Positions 11,894-53,479 of a stretch of 64,000 bases of DNA are shown here, piece by piece; the stretch's first letter is position 1, and the number at the start of each line of letters is the position of its first letter. The notes beneath the pieces are model-generated. The model made no database searches. It worked only from the letters and a program-made list of their open reading frames with translations, and was not told the DNA's origin. Origin of the DNA: a bacterium (GTDB lineage: Bacteria > T1Sed10-126); NCBI GenBank assembly GCA_003554945.1, contig PWHN01000102.1, positions 240-64,239 of the forward strand. Direction: 5' to 3'. Made by a program: the position numbers and the translations under genes.

Positions 11894-12125
11894 TTGCCAC
11901 TCCCGCCTGCTAATACCTGAAATTTTTCGGCCGTCAAAGCATCTTATGGACATTTTTCGTGAATTATGAGATTGTCTATTTCAACAGCCGAAACATAAGA
12001 CCCAATTACTTTCATTATATACTACCACTTTACCTCGGAGGTTGAAAGTTTGAAAATCTTCAGAGTATGGTTGGTTTGAGAAATTTACGCAAAAGTAATT
12101 ATATTTTTACGAGAGGGTGATTCTA

Positions 12126-14576: not shown

Positions 14577-14608
14577 AAATTTATGGCTCTATTGAAGTTT
14601 TTGGTCAA

Positions 14609-14630
14609 GTAGGGATTGGACCCTACTTTG
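14609..14630 (+). terminator. Weak hairpin plus short T-run after the CPBP gene
   Basis: GTAGGG-ATTGGA-CCCTAC followed by TTTG. The stem is only 6 bp and the T-tract is short. Confidence 0.3.
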
Positions 14631-14646
14631 TAAAAGAGAAACGGTA

Positions 14647-14805
14647 GTTCTGAGAACCGATGTGTTTCTGACGTATTTATAAATACCTCAAACCCCAGGA
14701 TGGGGTTGTTTTGAGGTCTTTATACCTCGGAAGTGGCCCCGAGGGCCACGAGAATGATGTCAGAAATATATCGGTCCTCAGAACGGGGAAACTGCGAAAC
14801 TTTAG
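14647..14805 (+). ncRNA. Unclassified structured element, copy 1 (candidate ncRNA or structured mobile repeat)
   Basis: A 26-position closing helix (14647-14672 with 14759-14784) has one mismatch and two G-U pairs valid only on the plus strand. It encloses two internal hairpins. The tail is 30/33 identical to the reverse complement of 31357-31389. Confidence 0.45.
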
Positions 14806-14845
14806 TATTATCAAAAAGAGCGAAATAATCTATAATTAGTGCATG

Positions 14846-14874
14846 TTGAATTGATTAGCAGTAACTTTTAAATT
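14846..14874 (+). promoter_or_regulatory. Candidate sigma70-type promoter of rpsT
   Basis: TTGAAT, 17 nt, TAATT-like hexamer TAAATT, ending 18 nt before the rpsT ATG, with a GGAGGTG RBS in between. Confidence 0.4.
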
Positions 14875-14892: not shown

Positions 14893-15150
14893 ATGCCAAC
14901 TTCAAAATCAGCGGAAAAACGTATCCGCCAGAATGAGAAAAAACGTCAGTATAACAAGCAATACCGCACCACAATTAAGAAAGCCCGGCGCGAACTTGAA
15001 GAGGCCGTGGAAGCTAAAGCCGACGAAGAGAAAATTGATGAGCTGCGGCGAGAAGCACTCGGTTGCGTTGATAAAGCAGCGAACAAAGGGGTTATTCACC
15101 GTAACAAAGCTGCACGCCTTAAGTCACAGATTGACCGGCTCGCCTCTTAA
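14893..15150 (+). CDS. rpsT: 30S ribosomal protein S20
   Basis: MPTSKSAEKRIRQNEKKR... is a typical S20 N-terminus, in a basic 85-aa protein. The ATG at 14893 follows GGAGGTG. Confidence 0.93.
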   Translation: MPTSKSAEKRIRQNEKKRQYNKQYRTTIKKARRELEEAVEAKADEEKIDELRREALGCVDKAANKGVIHRNKAARLKSQIDRLAS

Positions 15151-16193
15151 TAACTTCTCAAATACCTGTATTGCCTGGTAAGAAAACGTGAGAGGATAAG
15201 CTCTGCTTGCTCTGGACTGCCGTATTTTATTGAACAGGAAGTTCGATAAGATTCACGGAAGAAGTTTTCAGGATAACGGCCGGTTATATTTTTAAGTGCC
15301 TGCTTATACTGTGTCATGATTCCTTTAGAGGTTGGAATATTCATTTCTCCAAGGATTTCTTTCAGGCGACGGCCTCGACGTCTCTCTCTCTGTAAAATTC
15401 GAACCTTGCTTAAAAAACTGAAAATTATTGAGAAAATCTTGTAAGGATCCTCGCCTTCCCGCAGCAAATCCTGCAGAACGATGAGTATCTCCTCAAGGTT
15501 TCCCGTTGATATTTTTGCTTTCAACTCCTGGTATGCGTCGTCTGCACTCTCATCGCTTATAATCGCTTCAACGTCCTCCGGGCCGATATTTGGTTGACCA
15601 AACTGAATCAGTTTATCGGCTTCCAGCTGTGCCCGTGCCAACTTACCTTTTGTCTTTTCCAGCAGACGCTGCAGAGCGGAAGGTTCTATCTTCACCCCGG
15701 CATCCTCTATCCGAGATCTAATACGTTGACGCAGGGAGTTTTCGAACGGCTCCCAGAAGACTATGACCCAACCGCCGGCCGACTCAACAGATGCGGCCAG
15801 CTTACCCAGTTTTCTACCTTTTTTATAGGGATGGTCGGCGTCCTCAATAATTAAGTGGGTATTTGGTTCAGGAGTGGAAAGGAAATCTTCAATGGCTTCG
15901 TAATGTTTCTCCAGTCCCGTCCGCCCACCGTCTTTCCGTTCCATCTGCTTTAAAATTAGCCAGGTTGTTGACTTAAAGAGACCGGGTGAACGCAGCTCCG
16001 AGATTAACTCGTCAGCCTCGATCTCGTCGGCATAGACTTTTATTATTTCTCTTTCCGGATCTGGAAAATTTGTCTCCAACTCTTCTAAAAATTCTGTCTT
16101 GAGCTGCGCCTCAGGACCGCTGGCCAGGACAACCGGTGGAATTTCTTTATAGCTCCCCCGGCGCCAGCTGTCATAGGCCTGTCCTAACCCCAT
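15147..16193 (-). CDS. holA: DNA polymerase III delta subunit
   Basis: 348 aa with a HolA-like layout, immediately downstream of an LptE-like lipoprotein (the classic lptE-holA pair). Confidence 0.7.
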   Translation of the reverse strand: MGLGQAYDSWRRGSYKEIPPVVLASGPEAQLKTEFLEELETNFPDPEREIIKVYADEIEADELISELRSPGLFKSTTWLILKQMERKDGGRTGLEKHYEAIEDFLSTPEPNTHLIIEDADHPYKKGRKLGKLAASVESAGGWVIVFWEPFENSLRQRIRSRIEDAGVKIEPSALQRLLEKTKGKLARAQLEADKLIQFGQPNIGPEDVEAIISDESADDAYQELKAKISTGNLEEILIVLQDLLREGEDPYKIFSIIFSFLSKVRILQRERRRGRRLKEILGEMNIPTSKGIMTQYKQALKNITGRYPENFFRESYRTSCSIKYGSPEQAELILSRFLTRQYRYLRSY

Positions 16194-21238: not shown

Positions 21239-21291
21239 TCTTTCTCCCTCGCTGAATAACTTATCATTTTCTTTTTCCTTATATGTCTACG

Positions 21292-21360
21292 GTCTTGAAC
21301 GATAACCGTTTAAAATTCAAGATGGATTCCGGGTCTCCGCTTCGCTTCGCCCGGAATGAC
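21292..21360. repeat. Family-1 intergenic repeat, 3' module (hairpin-rich)
   Basis: 21292-21332 is identical over 41 nt to 30428-30468. It is followed by an ATTCCGGG...CCCGGAAT hairpin ending in GAATGAC, as in the other copies. Confidence 0.8.
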
Positions 21361-21411
21361 GTCAAGTTCAAGAACATGAACAAGATTATGAGCACTTAAT
21401 GAATTTGAATT

Positions 21412-21446
21412 AGCTTTCAGCTTTTGGCTTTGAGCTTTAAGCTGGT
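21412..21446. repeat. Degenerate 7-nt tandem array AGCTTTN x5
   Basis: Units are AGCTTTC AGCTTTT GGCTTTG AGCTTTA AGCTGGT. The same word array recurs at 63489-63516. Confidence 0.7.
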
Positions 21447-21578
21447 GTATTCCGGGTTACTCTCTCTACAGTCGCTTGCCCGAAATCTATGATACACACA
21501 TAGAAACAGTTAATTTTACAATACATCTTCAGAAAATTCATCCCTTTTGAATCATAACCCAGAACCTACCGCTTTCCT

Positions 21579-21606: not shown

Positions 21607-21611
21607 CAGAA

Positions 21612-21722
21612 GTTCGGTAATCAGTAATCGGTGTTCGGCAATCGGTTTTGAAGTTACTGACCATTACTGAATACTGGTTACTGATTACTGCTCTTTACTG
21701 AATACTGACTACCGATTACTGC
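21612..21722. repeat. Inverted pair of degenerate heptamer arrays (5 x RWTCRGY, then 9 x TTACTGA-like)
   Basis: Left array 21612-21646 is GTTCGGT AATCAGT AATCGGT GTTCGGC AATCGG. Right array 21654-21722 has TTACTGA/ATACTGR units, which are the reverse-complement word. Confidence 0.7.
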
Positions 21723-21821: not shown

Positions 21822-21893
21822 GCGGGTGTAGCTCAGGGGTAGAGCGTCTCGTTGCCAACGAGAAGGTCGTGGGTTCAAATCCCATCACCCGCT
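21822..21893 (+). tRNA. tRNA-Gly (anticodon GCC)
   Basis: Folds by hand into a cloverleaf: acceptor GCGGGTG/CACCCGC, anticodon arm TCTCG-TTGCCAA-CGAGA, T arm GTGGG-TTCAAAT-CCCAT. No encoded CCA. Confidence 0.93.
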
Positions 21894-22010: not shown

Positions 22011-22084
22011 GGAGGCGTAGCCAAGTCCGGTCAGGCAAGGGCCTGCAAAGCCCTCATACGTCGGTTCAAATCCGACCGCCTCCT
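22011..22084 (+). tRNA. tRNA-Cys (anticodon GCA)
   Basis: Acceptor GGAGGCG/CGCCTCC, anticodon arm AGGGC-CTGCAAA-GCCCT, T arm GTCGG-TTCAAAT-CCGAC, an A13/A22 mismatch as in bacterial tRNA-Cys, and discriminator T. Confidence 0.9.
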
Positions 22085-24523: not shown

Positions 24524-24643
24524 AATAGAGAAAATTCGGGGGTTTATTGAACTGCTCCGTTTGTTTGTTTATAACTGTTTTGGCCACCGGAATTATTATG
24601 GTCTTGACTCAATAATTGTCGCTGCGGGCTTGCCCTAACGCCC

Positions 24644-24753
24644 GTCATTGCGGACCACGATCCGCAATCCATTTTTTCACCCCCTTTTGGCTTTCCTCCC
24701 TTCAAGGGGGGAAAAGGAAAGGGGGGTAGATTCCGGCTTGAGGACCGGAATGA
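24644..24753. repeat. Family-1 intergenic repeat, full copy A (about 110 nt, MITE/REP-like)
   Basis: Termini GTCATTGCGG ... CCGGAATGAC form an imperfect terminal inverted repeat. Three internal hairpins: ATTGCGGA/TCCGCAAT, CCTCCCTTCAAGGGGGG, ATTCCGG/CCGGAAT. Homologous to 30346-30486. Confidence 0.8.
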
Positions 24754-29316: not shown

Positions 29317-29400
29317 CAAAACAGACCGGTCGTCTCCCCCCACCCCGCTCAACTTTTTTCCTCCCCCTTGATCAATTCCCCCAGTAAATCTTATTTTTCA

Positions 29401-29434
29401 GTGATATGATTAAGCTAGAACTTAATCAAATTAC
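29401..29434. promoter_or_regulatory. Upstream operator-like site related to the 29554 palindrome
   Basis: GTGATATGATTAAG-CTAGAA-CTTAATC has 7-bp inverted arms. It shares the word GTGATAT.GNTTAAG ... CTTAAT with the proximal palindrome. Confidence 0.4.
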
Positions 29435-29553
29435 TAAAAACTTATTTTGTATATATTTTAGCTTCAACATCACTAAAAAGCTCATAAAGGATATATTAGT
29501 TAGTTACGGCAATATTTTTCACAAAAAATTTTGTTTTCATCTAAAGATTTTAT

Positions 29554-29587
29554 GTGATATAGTTAAGTTGTAGCTTAATTATATCAC
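29554..29587. promoter_or_regulatory. 34-bp near-perfect palindrome immediately upstream of the ArsR-like gene (candidate operator)
   Basis: In GTGATATAGTTAAGTTGTAGCTTAATTATATCAC, 14 of 17 positions pair. It ends 16 nt before the ATG and abuts the GGGAGGG RBS. Confidence 0.55.
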
Positions 29588-29603
29588 ACGGGAGGGATTC
29601 GAG

Positions 29604-30152
29604 ATGGAGGCTGAGGATGATTTTGAGGGGGTTAGGTTGCGGAGTATGTTGAAGGCGCTGGGGGGAAGGATAAAATTTAAGATAATCCAGCAGCTTGATA
29701 AATCGCCGGCTTATCCGAAGGAGCTGGCGGCTGAGTTTAATTTGAGTCGCAGTGACGTCTCTCAGCACCTGAAAGAACTCAGAAAACTGGGTTTTGTGGA
29801 GTGGGATCACCCGTTAGATGACGACGATCGTTTTCGACTCTACCAGATCCAGCAGCCGCTCCCCTCCCTAAAGCATCAGGTATTGATTGAATTATTAAGC
29901 ACCGCCGAGGAAGAAGAACTGGAACAGCGGGAAGAATCAAAAGTTGAAGAGAGAGCAGCCCTGCAAAAACAGATTGAAGCAAAAAAGCGAGAAAAGTTAA
30001 GGACTACGTTAAAAGCAATAGCAGCACACACGCAGCTACCGGCGGGAATGTTTGGCAGAGCACAGCAAGAACTGCGAAACGAATTGCGCGAACTAAAGGA
30101 TGAGATCGCCCGGCTTTCCGCAAAAGAATTTGAAATTTACGACAGCACATGA
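29604..30152 (+). CDS. ArsR-like winged-helix transcriptional regulator with C-terminal coiled coil
   Basis: The N-terminal about 70 aa follow the ArsR/SmtB HTH pattern (RIKFKIIQQLDKSPAYPKELAAEFNLSRSDVSQHLKELRKLGFV). No metal-site Cys pairs are seen. The C-terminal half is E/K-rich and helical. Confidence 0.6.
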   Translation: MEAEDDFEGVRLRSMLKALGGRIKFKIIQQLDKSPAYPKELAAEFNLSRSDVSQHLKELRKLGFVEWDHPLDDDDRFRLYQIQQPLPSLKHQVLIELLSTAEEEELEQREESKVEERAALQKQIEAKKREKLRTTLKAIAAHTQLPAGMFGRAQQELRNELRELKDEIARLSAKEFEIYDST

Positions 30153-30345
30153 GGTTAAATTGTAGTTGCCCGGAGATACTCCGGCCTGTCAAATCTCCGA
30201 ATTATTAAAATTAATGACCAGCCCCCTCCAGGGCTACTAATTTTCTATCAGCCCGACTTCGAAGGAACTAAAATCTGCTGACAGATTTCAAAGGATCGTA
30301 AGTGTTTAGCGCCCACAACGTTAGTGCGGGTTTGATCCCATGATC

Positions 30346-30486
30346 GTCATTGCGGACTACGATCCGCAATCCATTTTTTCCCCCCTTTGTCTTTCCCCTC
30401 TTCAAGGAGGGAAAAGGAAAGGGAATAGTCTTGAACGATAACCGTTTAAAATTCAAGATGGATTCCGGCTCGGGGGCCGGAATGAC
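30346..30486. repeat. Family-1 intergenic repeat, full copy B (141 nt, carries the extra 41-nt module)
   Basis: Same termini and hairpins as copy A, plus GTCTTGAACGATAACCGTTTAAAATTCAAGATGGATTCCGG, which is identical to 21292-21332. Confidence 0.8.
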
Positions 30487-30511
30487 AAGCTGTTTAAAGG
30501 GACCCGATTAT

Positions 30512-31356: not shown

Positions 31357-31611
31357 CTGAAGTTTTGCAGTTTCCCCATTCTGAGGACCAAGTTTACGCT
31401 ATTTAGAAGCCACCTGCAAATGTTTTTCTCATTCTCGGTTGCCCTCCAGGCAACCTCTGAGGTATAGCCGGTTGCAAACCAGGCCCTCGTGGCCTGCAAC
31501 CGGCTATAATTCCGAAAAACCCCTGCCGGTAACTTCCTGTGTGCTTCCAAAGATTCATCTTCACTCTTTTGTAGCGGTTTTTCCTTGTATGCTCGATTAA
31601 GTGCTCAGAAG
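31357..31611 (-). ncRNA. Unclassified structured element, copy 2 (expanded variant of 14647-14805)
   Basis: The minus strand carries the same order of closing helix, hairpin 1 (31463-31508), TATACCTCAGAGG joint, hairpin 2 (31437-31455), GAGAATGA joint and the 33-nt tail (30/33 identical). Confidence 0.45.
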
Positions 31612-31676
31612 AAAGAGAAAATAAGATATGGGCGATCCTGCTTGCAAAACAGAAAACTCTAGCAAAATATAAAAAT

Positions 31677-40241: not shown

Positions 40242-40312
40242 AACTACTCAACTTATCTTTCCCCCTCACCCTATCCTTCTCCCTCCAGGGGAGAGGGAAT
40301 AGATGAGTAGTT
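40242..40312. repeat. Family-2 intergenic repeat (71 nt, terminal inverted repeat AACTACTCA/TGAGTAGTT)
   Basis: Its reverse complement aligns with 53233-53315: AACTACTCATCTAT.CCCTCTCCCCTGGAGGGAGA.GG ... GGGTGAGGGGGAAAGAT. Confidence 0.75.
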
Positions 40313-40744
40313 AAAAATCAGCAATACAAGGTATTTTTTGTTTTTACTTTATGTGAACTATTTTTTTCATAATGGTAATTCATTTGCAAAATTTAAAATT
40401 AGTTCAAAAAATTTTTGCTCCTTGATATCAAGTGGTTTCAGCCTGCTTTTTACCAAAAGTTAAAATTAGAAAAATAAGGTTCTCCCCCGCTAAAAAATTT
40501 ATTATTCACCAGCAAATTAATTTAGATTCAATATACTTAGCCCAGCTATGAAAATTATCATTCGCACCCCCCCTTCAAAAAATAAATTAATTAGATGCGA
40601 GTTCAAATCACAATACGGACCATTCAAACCGGTAGAATTCGGGGGAGATTTTTCTTCTTGACCGGCCTTTGATAATCCGATATATTTTTACCGCTTAAGT
40701 TGGGAGGTCAGGAAAAACCAATCGCACTATAAATGTTGATTAAT

Positions 40745-53122: not shown

Positions 53123-53232
53123 TGTCGTATTCGCTTGTATGAGGCCAGTTCCGATGAGGCCGGAATTTTGATTCAAAACCCTTAACCGGCTTTAAAACAT
53201 TGGTTTCAATGCCATACACAATAATTAATCAT

Positions 53233-53315
53233 AACTACTCATCTATCCCCTCTCCCCTGGAGGGAGAGGGTCAGAGCCTGCCCCGGACTCGATCCGGGGG
53301 TGAGGGGGGAAAGAT
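53233..53315. repeat. Family-2 intergenic repeat (83 nt, with extra internal hairpin)
   Basis: AACTACTCATCTATCCCCTCTCCCCTGGAGGGAGAGGG + CCCCGGACTCGATCCGGGG + GTGAGGGGGGAAAGAT, inverted relative to the 40242 copy. Confidence 0.75.
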
Positions 53316-53451: not shown

Positions 53452-53479
53452 TTTCCCCCCGTCAAGGGGGGAAGTTTTT
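53452..53479 (+). terminator. Intrinsic terminator-like hairpin inside the permease leader (candidate attenuator)
   Basis: TTCCCCCC-GTCAA-GGGGGGAA followed by GTTTTT. An upstream GGGGG run (53443-53447) can pair with the same C-run instead. Confidence 0.5.

What the first reader, a model, noticed from the sequence alone, without database searches (positions are those of the whole stretch)
14647..14805. Unclassified structured element upstream of rpsT, one of a covarying pair
On the plus strand, 14647-14672 pairs with 14759-14784 over 26 positions: 23 Watson-Crick pairs, one A/C mismatch and two G-U pairs. The G-U pairs exist only if the plus strand is the RNA. Inside lies a long hairpin (14678-14692 with 14710-14724), with an inner CCCCA/TGGGG helix and a 4-nt 3' bulge. 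A second hairpin is GTGGCCC-CGA-GGGCCAC (14733-14749). The 33 nt at 14773-14805 (GGTCCTCAGAACGGGGAAACTGCGAAACTTTAG) are 30/33 identical to the reverse complement of 31357-31389. The joints TATACCTC(G/A)GA(A/G)G and GAGAATGA are also shared. The helices between them differ in sequence but keep the same architecture in the other copy. Conserved single-stranded joints with helices kept by different sequences are what a functional RNA fold looks like. I cannot match it to any riboswitch, leader, 6S, SRP, tmRNA or RNase P consensus I know. No U-tract follows, and a plausible rpsT promoter lies downstream (14846-14874), so it is probably not simply the rpsT leader.
Basis: seen in the sequence. Interest (0 to 1): 0.7.

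Follow-up and report, generated by a model that had tools for sequence, protein, structure and literature searches.

The report
Structured mobile repeat (MITE), not a riboswitch
The folded element upstream of rpsT is one copy of a small mobile DNA repeat family from uncultured soda-lake bacteria, and its central three-armed fold is kept by selection on one strand; this kind of element is already known, and this family is a well-preserved new example.

Summary
14647-14784 (+) and 31405-31537 (-) fold as the same three-way junction, and no Rfam family matches.

It is not an rpsT leader and not a unique pair. Scans of public genomes and metagenomes found at least 22 copies on 17 contigs. They fall into five core lineages (A-E) and sit next to unrelated housekeeping genes.

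Full-length copies are 236-405 bp and non-coding. They end in terminal inverted repeats, (C)TAAAGTTTTGCG...CGCAAAACTTTA(G). Four of 11 are flanked by 6-9 bp direct repeats.

The core is still unusually constrained:
- 97% of pair cells are paired, and 35 of 54 pairs show compensatory changes.
- G-U pairs outnumber A-C pairs 69 to 6, so one strand is selected.
- J23 and J31 are invariant.
- The core is 93-100% identical among A copies, against 73% for the right terminal repeat.
- At one orthologous locus the element is 95-98% identical where the flanking DNA, mostly coding, averages about 80%.

Best reading: a structured MITE family, analogous to bcr1 or Correia elements, that probably acts as co-transcribed RNA. 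The function is unproven.

The parts
14598..14805 (+). Copy A: a 5'-truncated A-type element. It lacks the left terminal repeat and the X hairpin. It is homologous to positions 55-260 of the 261-bp full-length A element at L054:1561-1821.
   Evidence: blastn gives 92.8% identity over 207 nt. It is 88-94% identical to nine other A copies.
14607..14628 (+). Small upstream hairpin AAGTAGGG-ATTGGA-CCCTACTT, part of the element's left module.
   Evidence: It is present in most A copies, with compensatory differences (for example L007 AAGTGG...CCACTT). Mean pairwise identity is only 0.61.
14647..14672 (+). P1 5' arm of core A.
14673..14677 (+). J12, GTATT here and GGAWT in the other copies. In the other copies its GA can pair with the UC of CCUC.
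14678..14724 (+). P2 hairpin. The base is UAUA/UAUA, the apical loop is CAGGAUG, and there is a 4-nt 3' bulge.
14725..14732 (+). J23, CCUCGGAA. It is invariant in all 10 A copies.
   Evidence: identity 1.000
14733..14749 (+). P3 hairpin, GTGGCCC-CGA-GGGCCAC.
14750..14758 (+). J31, GAGAAUGA(U). It is invariant in every complete core of lineages A-C; the D and E copies are cut off before this point. It contains an AUG 8-10 nt downstream of an SD-like GGAGG/GAGGG in P3.
   Evidence: read directly from the sequences
14759..14784 (+). P1 3' arm of core A.
14785..14805 (+). Right terminal inverted repeat, GGGGAAACTGCGAAACTTTAG. It is the reverse complement of the left end CTAAAGTTTTGCG... found in full-length copies.
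31357..31662 (-). Copy B: a full-length composite B-type element of about 306 nt, bounded by both terminal repeats.
31645..31662 (-). Left terminal inverted repeat of copy B, CTAGAGTTTTCTGTTTTG.
31405..31537 (-). Core B, a three-way junction. P1 is 31514-31537 with 31405-31428, P2 is 31463-31508, J23 is 31455-31462, P3 is 31438-31454 and J31 is 31429-31437.
   Evidence: cmsearch scores 119 bits; fold; coordinates
31357..31389 (-). Right end module of copy B, GGTCCTCAGAATGGGGAAACTGCAAAACTTCAG. It equals the outer half of an A-type P1 3' arm plus the right terminal repeat.
   Evidence: (I2)
14808..14836 (+). Context, not part of the element: a sigma-70-like promoter for rpsT (14893-15150), directly downstream of the element.

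Best explanation
[quoted passage not shown] Elements are 236-405 bp, non-coding and AT-targeting, and they occur in one or a few related uncultured soda-lake bacteria.

Anatomy (shown). Each element has terminal inverted repeats, (C)TAAAGTTTTGCG...CGCAAAACTTTA(G). Inside is a 133-140-nt core that folds on one strand into a three-way junction: a long P1, then P2, then P3. Two junction strands are invariant, CCUCRGAR and GAGAAUGA.

Spread (inferred). Copies were presumably spread in trans by an unidentified DDE-type transposase that duplicates 6-9 bp of target. Elements also nest into and recombine with each other, so core modules are exchanged within the same terminal-repeat frame.

Selection after insertion (shown). 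The termini decay but the core stays under purifying selection for its single-stranded fold.

Mode of action (inferred). The core most likely acts as RNA when the element is read through as part of neighbouring transcripts, as a 5' leader, an intercistronic spacer or a 3' UTR. In that role it would be a very stable duplex and junction that alters processing, stability or translation of adjacent cistrons. This is how transcribed Correia, ERIC and bcr1 elements are thought to behave.

In the window, copy A has lost its left terminal repeat, so it is an immobile relic with an intact core. It lies between the stop of a CAAX-protease gene and the rpsT promoter.
For: Multi-copy and dispersed:
- One motif scan of species-representative genomes found 5 true copies (3 in one MAG) among 18 hits.
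- One metagenome scan found 15 more copies on 13 contigs.
- cmsearch added 4 further copies.

Terminal repeats and size.

Target-site duplications: direct repeats of at least 6 nt flank 4 of 11 full-length copies (L031 TTAAGAATT, L054 ATAAATTA, L041 ATATTTA, L034 TAACAA). Only 1 of 108 mismatched-flank controls reached 6 nt.

Assembly behaviour: short-read contigs carrying rpsT break inside the element.

No gene specificity: neighbouring genes have no common theme, and close aldolase orthologues lack the element.

Nesting and module exchange:
- L007 (A core) and L013/L023 (B core) occupy the same orthologous site with the same terminal repeats.
- A and B copies abut in L049, L025 and L048.

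Fold under selection:
- 97% of pair cells are paired, against 33-46% when partners are slid.
- 35 of 54 pairs show changes on both sides, and 0 of 500 shuffles reach the observed values.
- Lineages D and E add further compensated P2 helices.
- G-U occupies 69 cells at 23 sites, A-C only 6 cells at 5 sites.
- The forward strand scores 120-149 bits and the reverse strand 19-42 bits.

Core more conserved than the rest:
- Among A copies the core is 93-100% identical and J23 and J31 are 100%, against 73% for the right terminal repeat and 44-76% for the left modules.
- At the orthologous nifU locus (L020 versus L025) the element is 95-98% identical where the flanking DNA, mostly coding, averages about 80%.

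Transcription is likely at some loci. The element ends 16-50 nt from start codons, leaving no room for a promoter (L024 rbfA, L020/L025 nifU).

Precedent. The MITE definition, and bcr1 with compensatory changes that keep a cruciform-like RNA with two stem-loops, are described in PMC3184786.
Against: - No transposase with matching terminal repeats was found in the window or in the loci held.
- 7 of 11 full-length copies show no convincing target-site duplication.
- No exact empty site was recovered for this family.
- In a classical MITE the terminal repeats are the best-conserved part. Here they are the worst-conserved part.
- Transcription was not measured.
- No convincing internal promoter or terminator was found.
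- About a third of copies lie antisense to both neighbouring genes. That is awkward for a purely read-through RNA role.
- The high core identity could partly reflect gene conversion among copies rather than selection.
- The covariation rests on only about five lineages.
Confidence: 0.7

Rival explanations
1. A family of independently transcribed small RNA genes. On this reading the core is a trans-acting or protein-binding sRNA with its own promoter. The terminal repeats are incidental, or only the vehicle that copied the gene around.
For: - The junction strands are invariant, the helices covary and the fold is strand-specific.
- The core outlasts loss of the terminal repeats (window copy A).
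- Copies antisense to both neighbours would need their own promoter.
- An A-rich -10-like box (TGTAAAAA in A, GGTAAAAC in C) ends about 7 nt before P1 (read from the sequences).
- The hairpin loops carry GGA motifs (CAGGAUG, UGGAGG) like those of CsrB/RsmZ-type RNAs. That comparison rests on established knowledge and was not tested.
Against: - The consensus scan finds no sigma-70 promoter inside either window copy and no terminator after P1.
- The putative promoter region is much less conserved than the core (0.61-0.76). It is replaced by unrelated sequence in L049.
- Terminal repeats, target-site duplications and nesting are best explained by transposition.
Confidence: 0.15
2. A relic of a transposase translation-initiation region. 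On this reading the junction is the 5' UTR of the parent IS elements, with the Shine-Dalgarno sequence in P3 and the start codon in J31. It was selected in the parent mRNAs, and the MITEs merely inherited it.
For: - GGAGG or GAGGG in the P3 loop and 3' arm lies 8-10 nt upstream of the invariant AUG of GAGAAUGA in lineages A, B and C (sequences).
- ACCUC in J23 resembles an anti-Shine-Dalgarno sequence.
- This reading would explain lineage-level covariation together with near-identity within each lineage.
Against: - P1 pairs the two sides of the deletion-derivative and itself covaries with a G-U bias. That implies selection in the MITE form.
- The short ORFs that start at the AUG are not conserved (24, 9 and 3 codons).
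- No parent IS was found.
- The core stays conserved while the terminal repeats decay.
Confidence: 0.1
3. A DNA-level element. On this reading the palindrome acts as a cruciform or as a single-stranded DNA hairpin. It would be recognised by a REP/RAYT-like or IS200/IS605-like HUH enzyme, by an integrase, or by a DNA-binding regulator.
For: - Both strands fold stably (z = -9.5 for the reverse strand).
- G-T wobble pairs are also tolerated in single-stranded DNA.
- The strand asymmetry alone cannot distinguish RNA from single-stranded DNA.
Against: - Terminal inverted repeats with 6-9 bp target-site duplications are not features of REP/RAYT or IS200/IS605 elements.
- There is no conserved GTAG 5' tetranucleotide.
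- Unpaired junction strands that never vary are not needed for a cruciform.
Confidence: 0.04
4. A gene-specific cis-regulator: an rpsT leader or a riboswitch.
For: Position upstream of rpsT, on the same strand.
Against: - A sigma-70-like promoter lies between the element and rpsT.
- The same core sits next to at least 9 unrelated genes and in antisense orientation.
- It is absent from close aldolase orthologues.
- No Rfam family matches.
Confidence: 0.01

Closest known systems
bcr1, a group A interspersed repeat of the Bacillus cereus group
   Same: [quoted passage not shown] Compensatory base changes maintain it (PMC3184786).
   Different: There is no sequence similarity, and the host is an unrelated uncultured lineage. 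bcr1 is about 155 bp with 5-bp direct repeats, whereas these elements are 236-405 bp with 6-9 bp direct repeats. Here at least five core lineages share invariant junction strands, and cores are exchanged inside a common terminal-repeat frame. Transcription is shown for bcr1 and is untested here.
Correia / NEMIS elements of Neisseria
   Same: Both are small MITEs bounded by terminal inverted repeats, inserted close to genes and co-transcribed. Their RNA folds into long hairpins that affect mRNA processing. This is the mechanism I infer here.
   Different: Correia elements are 100-155 bp with 26-bp terminal repeats and a TA duplication, and they form simple hairpins. They have no conserved three-way junction. 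The Correia properties are from established knowledge, and were not tested here.
BOX and ERIC/IRU modular repeats
   Same: They are mosaic or modular in composition, form stable RNA structures when transcribed, and lie in intergenic and intra-operon positions.
   Different: The sequences and architectures differ. BOX elements lack terminal inverted repeats and target-site duplications. ERIC is a single imperfect palindrome.
REP/BIME elements
   Same: They are abundant extragenic palindromes that act as RNA hairpins in 3' UTRs.
   Different: REPs are about 35 bp, carry a conserved GTAG, are mobilised by RAYT transposases and have no terminal repeats or target-site duplications. These defining features are not met here.

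Membership tests
MITE (prokaryotic miniature inverted-repeat transposable element) | Small (under about 400 bp) with no transposase gene | tested here: met
   Full-length copies are 236-405 bp. The longest ORF starting at the internal AUG is 24 codons, read directly from the sequence.
MITE (prokaryotic miniature inverted-repeat transposable element) | Terminal inverted repeats | tested here: met
   The ends are (C)TAAAGTTTTGCG...CGCAAAACTTTA(G). In some copies the repeats extend to about 40 nt. They form the outermost helix in the folds.
MITE (prokaryotic miniature inverted-repeat transposable element) | Flanking target-site duplications | tested here: inconclusive
   4 of 11 copies have direct repeats of 6-9 nt or more, against 1 of 108 mismatched-flank controls. 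The other 7 copies show none.
MITE (prokaryotic miniature inverted-repeat transposable element) | Many dispersed copies at non-homologous sites | tested here: met
   At least 22 copies on 17 contigs: 2 in this 64-kb window and 3 in one MAG.
MITE (prokaryotic miniature inverted-repeat transposable element) | Presence/absence polymorphism at orthologous sites | tested here: inconclusive
   The element is absent upstream of 84%-identical aldolase orthologues, but the upstream synteny is different there. At the L007/L013 site the core is swapped rather than absent.
MITE (prokaryotic miniature inverted-repeat transposable element) | A cognate autonomous IS with the same terminal repeats | not testable with these tools
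   No such IS lies in the window or the held loci. The plasmid and phage collections gave no match.
Any Rfam family (riboswitches, leaders, 6S, ribozymes, omega-RNA/HEARO and others) | Match to the family's covariance model | tested here: not met
   The only gathering-threshold hits in the window are 3 tRNAs. At E <= 10, only noise-level hits overlap either copy.
Hammerhead ribozyme | A three-way junction with core strands CUGANGA / GAA / H in that cyclic order | tested here: not met
   The junction strands are G(GAUU) / CCUCRGAR / GAGAAUGA. Neither their lengths in cyclic order nor their sequences fit on either strand, by inspection. There is also no Rfam hit.
Ribosomal-protein leader / riboswitch for rpsT | A conserved position in the 5' UTR of one gene family | tested here: not met
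REP/BIME | A palindrome of about 35 bp with a 5' GTAG, and no terminal repeats or target-site duplications | tested here: not met
CsrB/RsmZ-type protein sponge | Multiple GGA motifs in hairpin loops, and binding by CsrA/RsmA | not tested
   GGA is present in many P2 and P3 loops (CAGGAUG, UGGAGG) but absent from the B-type P2 loop. Binding, and the presence of csrA in the host, were not examined.

The most novel reading that the evidence does not exclude
The 133-140-nt three-way-junction core is a previously undescribed functional RNA class. It could be a protein- or ribosome-binding module, or a small self-processing RNA. MITE carriers would have copied it around the genome, and the host or the element would keep it after the carrier's termini decay. 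That would make it a mobile RNA gene rather than a passive palindrome.
Probability: 0.22. Interest if true: 0.65.

Novelty: new member of a known kind. Interest (0 to 1): 0.35.

Why it matters
- **Annotation.** The element should be labelled as a repeat or MITE, not as an rpsT regulator or a candidate riboswitch. That prevents a false 'novel riboswitch' call.
- **Biology.** The family is a clean natural example of a mobile element whose internal fold, not its termini, is the conserved part. The junction strands are invariant across five lineages, and the fold is clearly selected on one strand.
- **If the core has a function.** It would show how structured RNA modules can be spread to many promoters and operons by transposition in an uncultured lineage.
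- **Practical point.** These repeats break short-read assemblies and can mislead binning. One copy sits on a contig labelled Thermoplasmata.

Tried and rejected
- **Rfam.** I ran gathering thresholds on the whole window and E <= 10 on both copies. Only tRNAs and noise came back.
- **Hammerhead and other ribozyme cores.** I compared them by inspection. The junction strand order and sequences do not fit.
- **Third copy at 12029 (TTTACCTCGGAGG).** This is a chance motif. An unfiltered cmsearch of the window finds only the two copies.
- **Genome-contig motif scan.** 13 of the 18 hits were chance matches in coding DNA. I expected about 27 by my own calculation.
- **Viral contigs.** There were 2 chance hits only.
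- **Plasmid and phage collections.** BLAST with full-length A and B elements found nothing.
- **Synteny search for an empty site.** blastn of the window against all loci matched only repeats. The aldolase orthologues lacked the element but also lacked the upstream synteny.
- **Transposase.** I looked for terminal-repeat pairs 0.8-4 kb apart and ran Pfam on 30 window ORFs. Neither turned one up.
- **Internal promoter.** The consensus scan found none inside the elements. A Bacteroidota-type -33/-7 reading of TTTG-N20-TACTTTG was rejected because the genes here have strong Shine-Dalgarno sequences and sigma-70-like promoters.
- **My own error.** The first rpsT look-ups used a frame shifted by one base. 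I corrected this.
- **Functional theme among downstream genes.** There is none.

Full report
**1. Observation**

- 14647-14672 pairs with 14759-14784 over 26 positions: 23 Watson-Crick pairs, 2 G-U pairs and 1 A/C mismatch.
- The hairpin 14678-14724 has the inner CCCC/GGGG helix and the 4-nt bulge.
- GTGGCCC-CGA-GGGCCAC lies at 14733-14749.
- 14773-14805 is 30/33 identical to the reverse complement of 31357-31389.

Both copies fold far better than shuffled sequence (z = -7.4 and -6.1). Both adopt the same three-way junction. Its order is a long P1, then J12 (GGAWU), then P2 beginning UAUA, then J23 (CCUCRGAR), then a short GC-rich P3, then J31 ((C)GAGAAUGA), then the P1 3' arm.

Rfam gives nothing at the gathering thresholds, and nothing but noise at E <= 10.

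rpsT is real: 14893-15150, Pfam S20p, E = 2.2e-23. A sigma-70-like site, TTATCA-17-TATAAT, lies at 14808-14836, between the element and rpsT.

**2. It is a multi-copy family, not a pair**

The window comes from a soda-lake sediment metagenome, JGI 3300000557.

I scanned one genome per species with TATACCTCRGARG-N(10-34)-GAGAATGA. This gave 18 hits, and by my own calculation about 27 would be expected by chance. Inspection showed that five are true homologues:
- three near-identical A-type copies in one MAG (L007, L010, L020);
- one copy whose helices are all different (type C, L008);
- one B-type copy (L013).

The same scan of metagenomes gave 15 further true copies on 13 contigs, mostly from one sample, Ga0207421.

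I built a covariance model from 18 sequences (R1). It scores the known copies at 119-149 bits. It also found two more lineages cut off by contig ends (D at L024:13574-13676 and E at L024:1-113) and two B variants. In the window there are only the two copies, even with the filters off.

**3. Anatomy of the whole element**

I aligned the flanks of all copies and ran BLAST with full-length examples. The conserved unit is much larger than the reported feature.

Full-length elements are 236-405 bp. They begin with (C)TAAAGTTTTGCG... and end with ...CGCAAAACTTTA(G). These are terminal inverted repeats, and they form the outermost helix when the element is folded.

- Window copy B (31357-31662, minus strand) is full length and has both termini.
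- Window copy A (14598-14805) lacks the first 54 nt or so, including the left terminus.

Flanking direct repeats of at least 6 nt occur at 4 of 11 full-length copies: TTAAGAATT, ATAAATTA, ATATTTA and TAACAA. Only 1 of 108 controls that pair unrelated left and right flanks reaches 6 nt.

Short-read contigs carrying this rpsT gene end 127 nt upstream of the ATG, inside the element. That is what a repeat does to an assembly.

These are the defining features of a MITE as reviewed in PMC3184786.

**4. Not gene-specific**

Copies that point the same way as the downstream gene precede rpsT, an ADH-synthase-type aldolase, nifU, rbfA, an icd/leuB-type dehydrogenase, aroC, a nitroreductase, a Mut7-C RNase and a HAD hydrolase. 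Other copies lie antisense to both neighbours.

Orthologues of the aldolase at 84% identity have ordinary promoter regions without the element. A 96%-identical strain has it.

**5. Nesting and module exchange**

L007 and L013/L023 are the same locus in related genomes, with flanks 85-89% identical. Both carry the same terminal repeats. The interior is an A core in one and a B core in the other.

The B unit has its own inverted repeat (GAGCACTCAATCGAG...CTCGATTGAGTGCTC). It occurs in both orientations relative to the end modules (L032 versus L013).

A and B copies abut head to head in L049. Fragments of one type lie next to the other in L025 and L048. The left end module contains, in reverse complement, GAGAATGA followed by a helix arm. 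It therefore looks like half of yet another core.

So the family evolves by insertion into, and recombination between, its own members.

**6. The core is nevertheless under unusual constraint**

*Structure counts.* On the 18-sequence alignment (A3), 97% of pair cells form standard pairs. With partners slid by 1-3 columns the figure is 33-46%. 35 of 54 pairs show changes on both sides, and 0 of 500 column shuffles reach the observed values. RNAalifold on its own recovers the same helices. These counts rest on only three lineages. Lineages D and E add two further fully compensated versions of P2, and D adds one of P3.

*Strand specificity.* G-U pairs fill 69 cells at 23 site-lineage combinations. 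A-C, which would be G-U on the other strand, fills 6 cells at 5. The model scores the reverse strand 100 bits lower. Elements lie in both orientations relative to their neighbours. A mutational strand bias is therefore an unlikely cause, and selection on one single strand is the simplest reading.

*Which parts are conserved.* Among the ten A copies, mean pairwise identity is as follows:

| Part | Mean pairwise identity |
|---|---|
| J23 | 1.00 |
| J31 | 1.00 |
| P2 | 0.97 |
| P1 arms | 0.93-0.98 |
| P3 | 0.89 |
| Right terminal repeat | 0.73 |
| Left modules | 0.44-0.76 |

This is the reverse of what a recently active, purely selfish MITE should show.

*Comparison with neighbouring genes.* At the orthologous nifU locus (L020 versus L025), the element and the 45-nt spacer to the start codon are 95-98% identical. 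The flanking DNA, mostly coding, averages about 80%.

Window copy A has lost its left terminus but keeps an intact core.

Gene conversion among copies could contribute to this pattern. It would not, by itself, explain unpaired junction strands that never vary while the stems do.

**7. How it most likely works**

Shown:
- a dispersed, non-coding element bounded by terminal repeats;
- partial evidence for target-site duplications;
- nesting;
- a strand-specific, covarying three-way junction with invariant junction strands.

Inferred:
- The element is mobilised in trans by an unidentified DDE-type transposase. Terminal repeats with 6-9 bp duplications suggest this. None was found in the window or the loci held.
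- The fold acts as RNA.

Several copies end 16-50 nt from a start codon, with only a ribosome-binding site between (L024 rbfA...CTTTAG-CAGGAGGTATAATC-GTG; L020/L025 nifU). Both window copies lie between co-directional genes. These copies are therefore probably transcribed as leaders or intercistronic spacers.

A near-perfect 24-27-bp P1 duplex closed by a compact junction is the kind of structure that blocks exonucleases or recruits double-strand-specific RNases. That is the role proposed for transcribed Correia and ERIC elements and for bcr1 (established knowledge).

I found no convincing internal promoter or terminator. That weakens the free-standing sRNA model, but the antisense copies keep it alive.

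One feature remains unexplained. GGAGG or GAGGG in the P3 loop and 3' arm lies 8-10 nt upstream of the invariant AUG of J31 in lineages A-C, and J23 contains ACCUC. This looks like a sequestered translation-initiation region. The ORFs that follow are 24, 9 and 3 codons long and are not conserved.

**8. Comparison with known elements, and novelty**

The closest analogue is bcr1 of the Bacillus cereus group. It is a MITE-like repeat with short direct repeats and it is transcribed. Compensatory changes preserve a cruciform-like RNA with two stem-loops.

Correia, ERIC and BOX elements share the co-transcribed structured-repeat logic and the modularity. REP/BIME elements, hammerheads, ribosomal leaders and every Rfam family fail their defining tests here.

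There is no sequence similarity to anything in the plasmid or phage collections or in viral contigs.

I therefore file it as a new member of a known kind, a structured MITE. Two aspects are unusual: five core lineages share invariant junction strands, and the core outlives its termini.

**9. Verdict**

Interest is 0.35.

About one chance in five remains that the core is a new functional RNA class spread by transposition. That would be considerably more interesting.

Noticed in passing
window 24623-24723, 30325-30423, 53452-53473; also L007:600-700 and L041:6950-7202: A second, unrelated repeat family (TGCGGG...CGTCATTGCGGAC...TTTTTTCCCCCC..TTCAAGGGGGGAA), 83-86% identical between the window copies. 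It also occurs in the related MAG and metagenome contigs, sometimes right next to the A element.
   Followed up: partly
window 21292-21335 and 30428-30471 (extended matches 21291-21455 and 30332-30486 to L041): A 44-nt direct repeat, 98% identical and 9 kb apart, which is part of a third dispersed repeat of about 160 nt.
   Followed up: no
window 29317-30511 compared with L057:3292-3361: A strain whose aldolase is 96% identical (protein level) lacks the ArsR-family gene (29604-30152) and both repeat-rich spacers. This is an indel of about 1.2 kb bounded by repeats.
   Followed up: partly
L007:342-645 compared with L013:1487-1496: About 300 bp is present in one genome and absent at the orthologous site of the other. 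This is a filled/empty site for another repeat family, so MITE turnover is active in this lineage.
   Followed up: partly
window 40275-40313 and 53232-53270: A 39-nt inverted pair, 95% complementary and 13 kb apart (CCTTCTCCCTCCAGGGGAGAGGGAATAGATGAGTAGTTA). It is probably another dispersed repeat.
   Followed up: no
window 21610-21721: A cluster of short TTACTGA/TTACTGAATACTG direct and inverted repeats, about 100 nt upstream of two tRNA genes (21822-21893 and 22011-22084).
   Followed up: no
L013 (PWHR01000048.1, labelled Thermoplasmata archaeon T1Sed10_119m): This 5-kb contig carries a B-type element and is 85-89% identical to contigs of a bacterial MAG (L007). It is probably a binning error caused by, or at least linked to, the repeats.
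   Followed up: partly
window 14750-14758 and 31429-31437; P3 at 14733-14749 and 31438-31454: The invariant J31 strand GAGAAUGA contains an AUG 8-10 nt downstream of an SD-like GGAGG/GAGGG in P3. J23 contains the anti-SD-like ACCUC. The ORFs that start at this AUG are short and not conserved.
   Followed up: partly
window 15147-16193 (-): holA (DNA polymerase III delta subunit, TIGR01128, E = 9e-47) converges on rpsT and overlaps its stop by 4 nt. The window otherwise holds ordinary chromosomal housekeeping genes (secA, pth, the L25 ribosomal protein gene, prs and a GlmU-like gene), and no transposase was found among the 30 ORFs scanned.
   Followed up: yes
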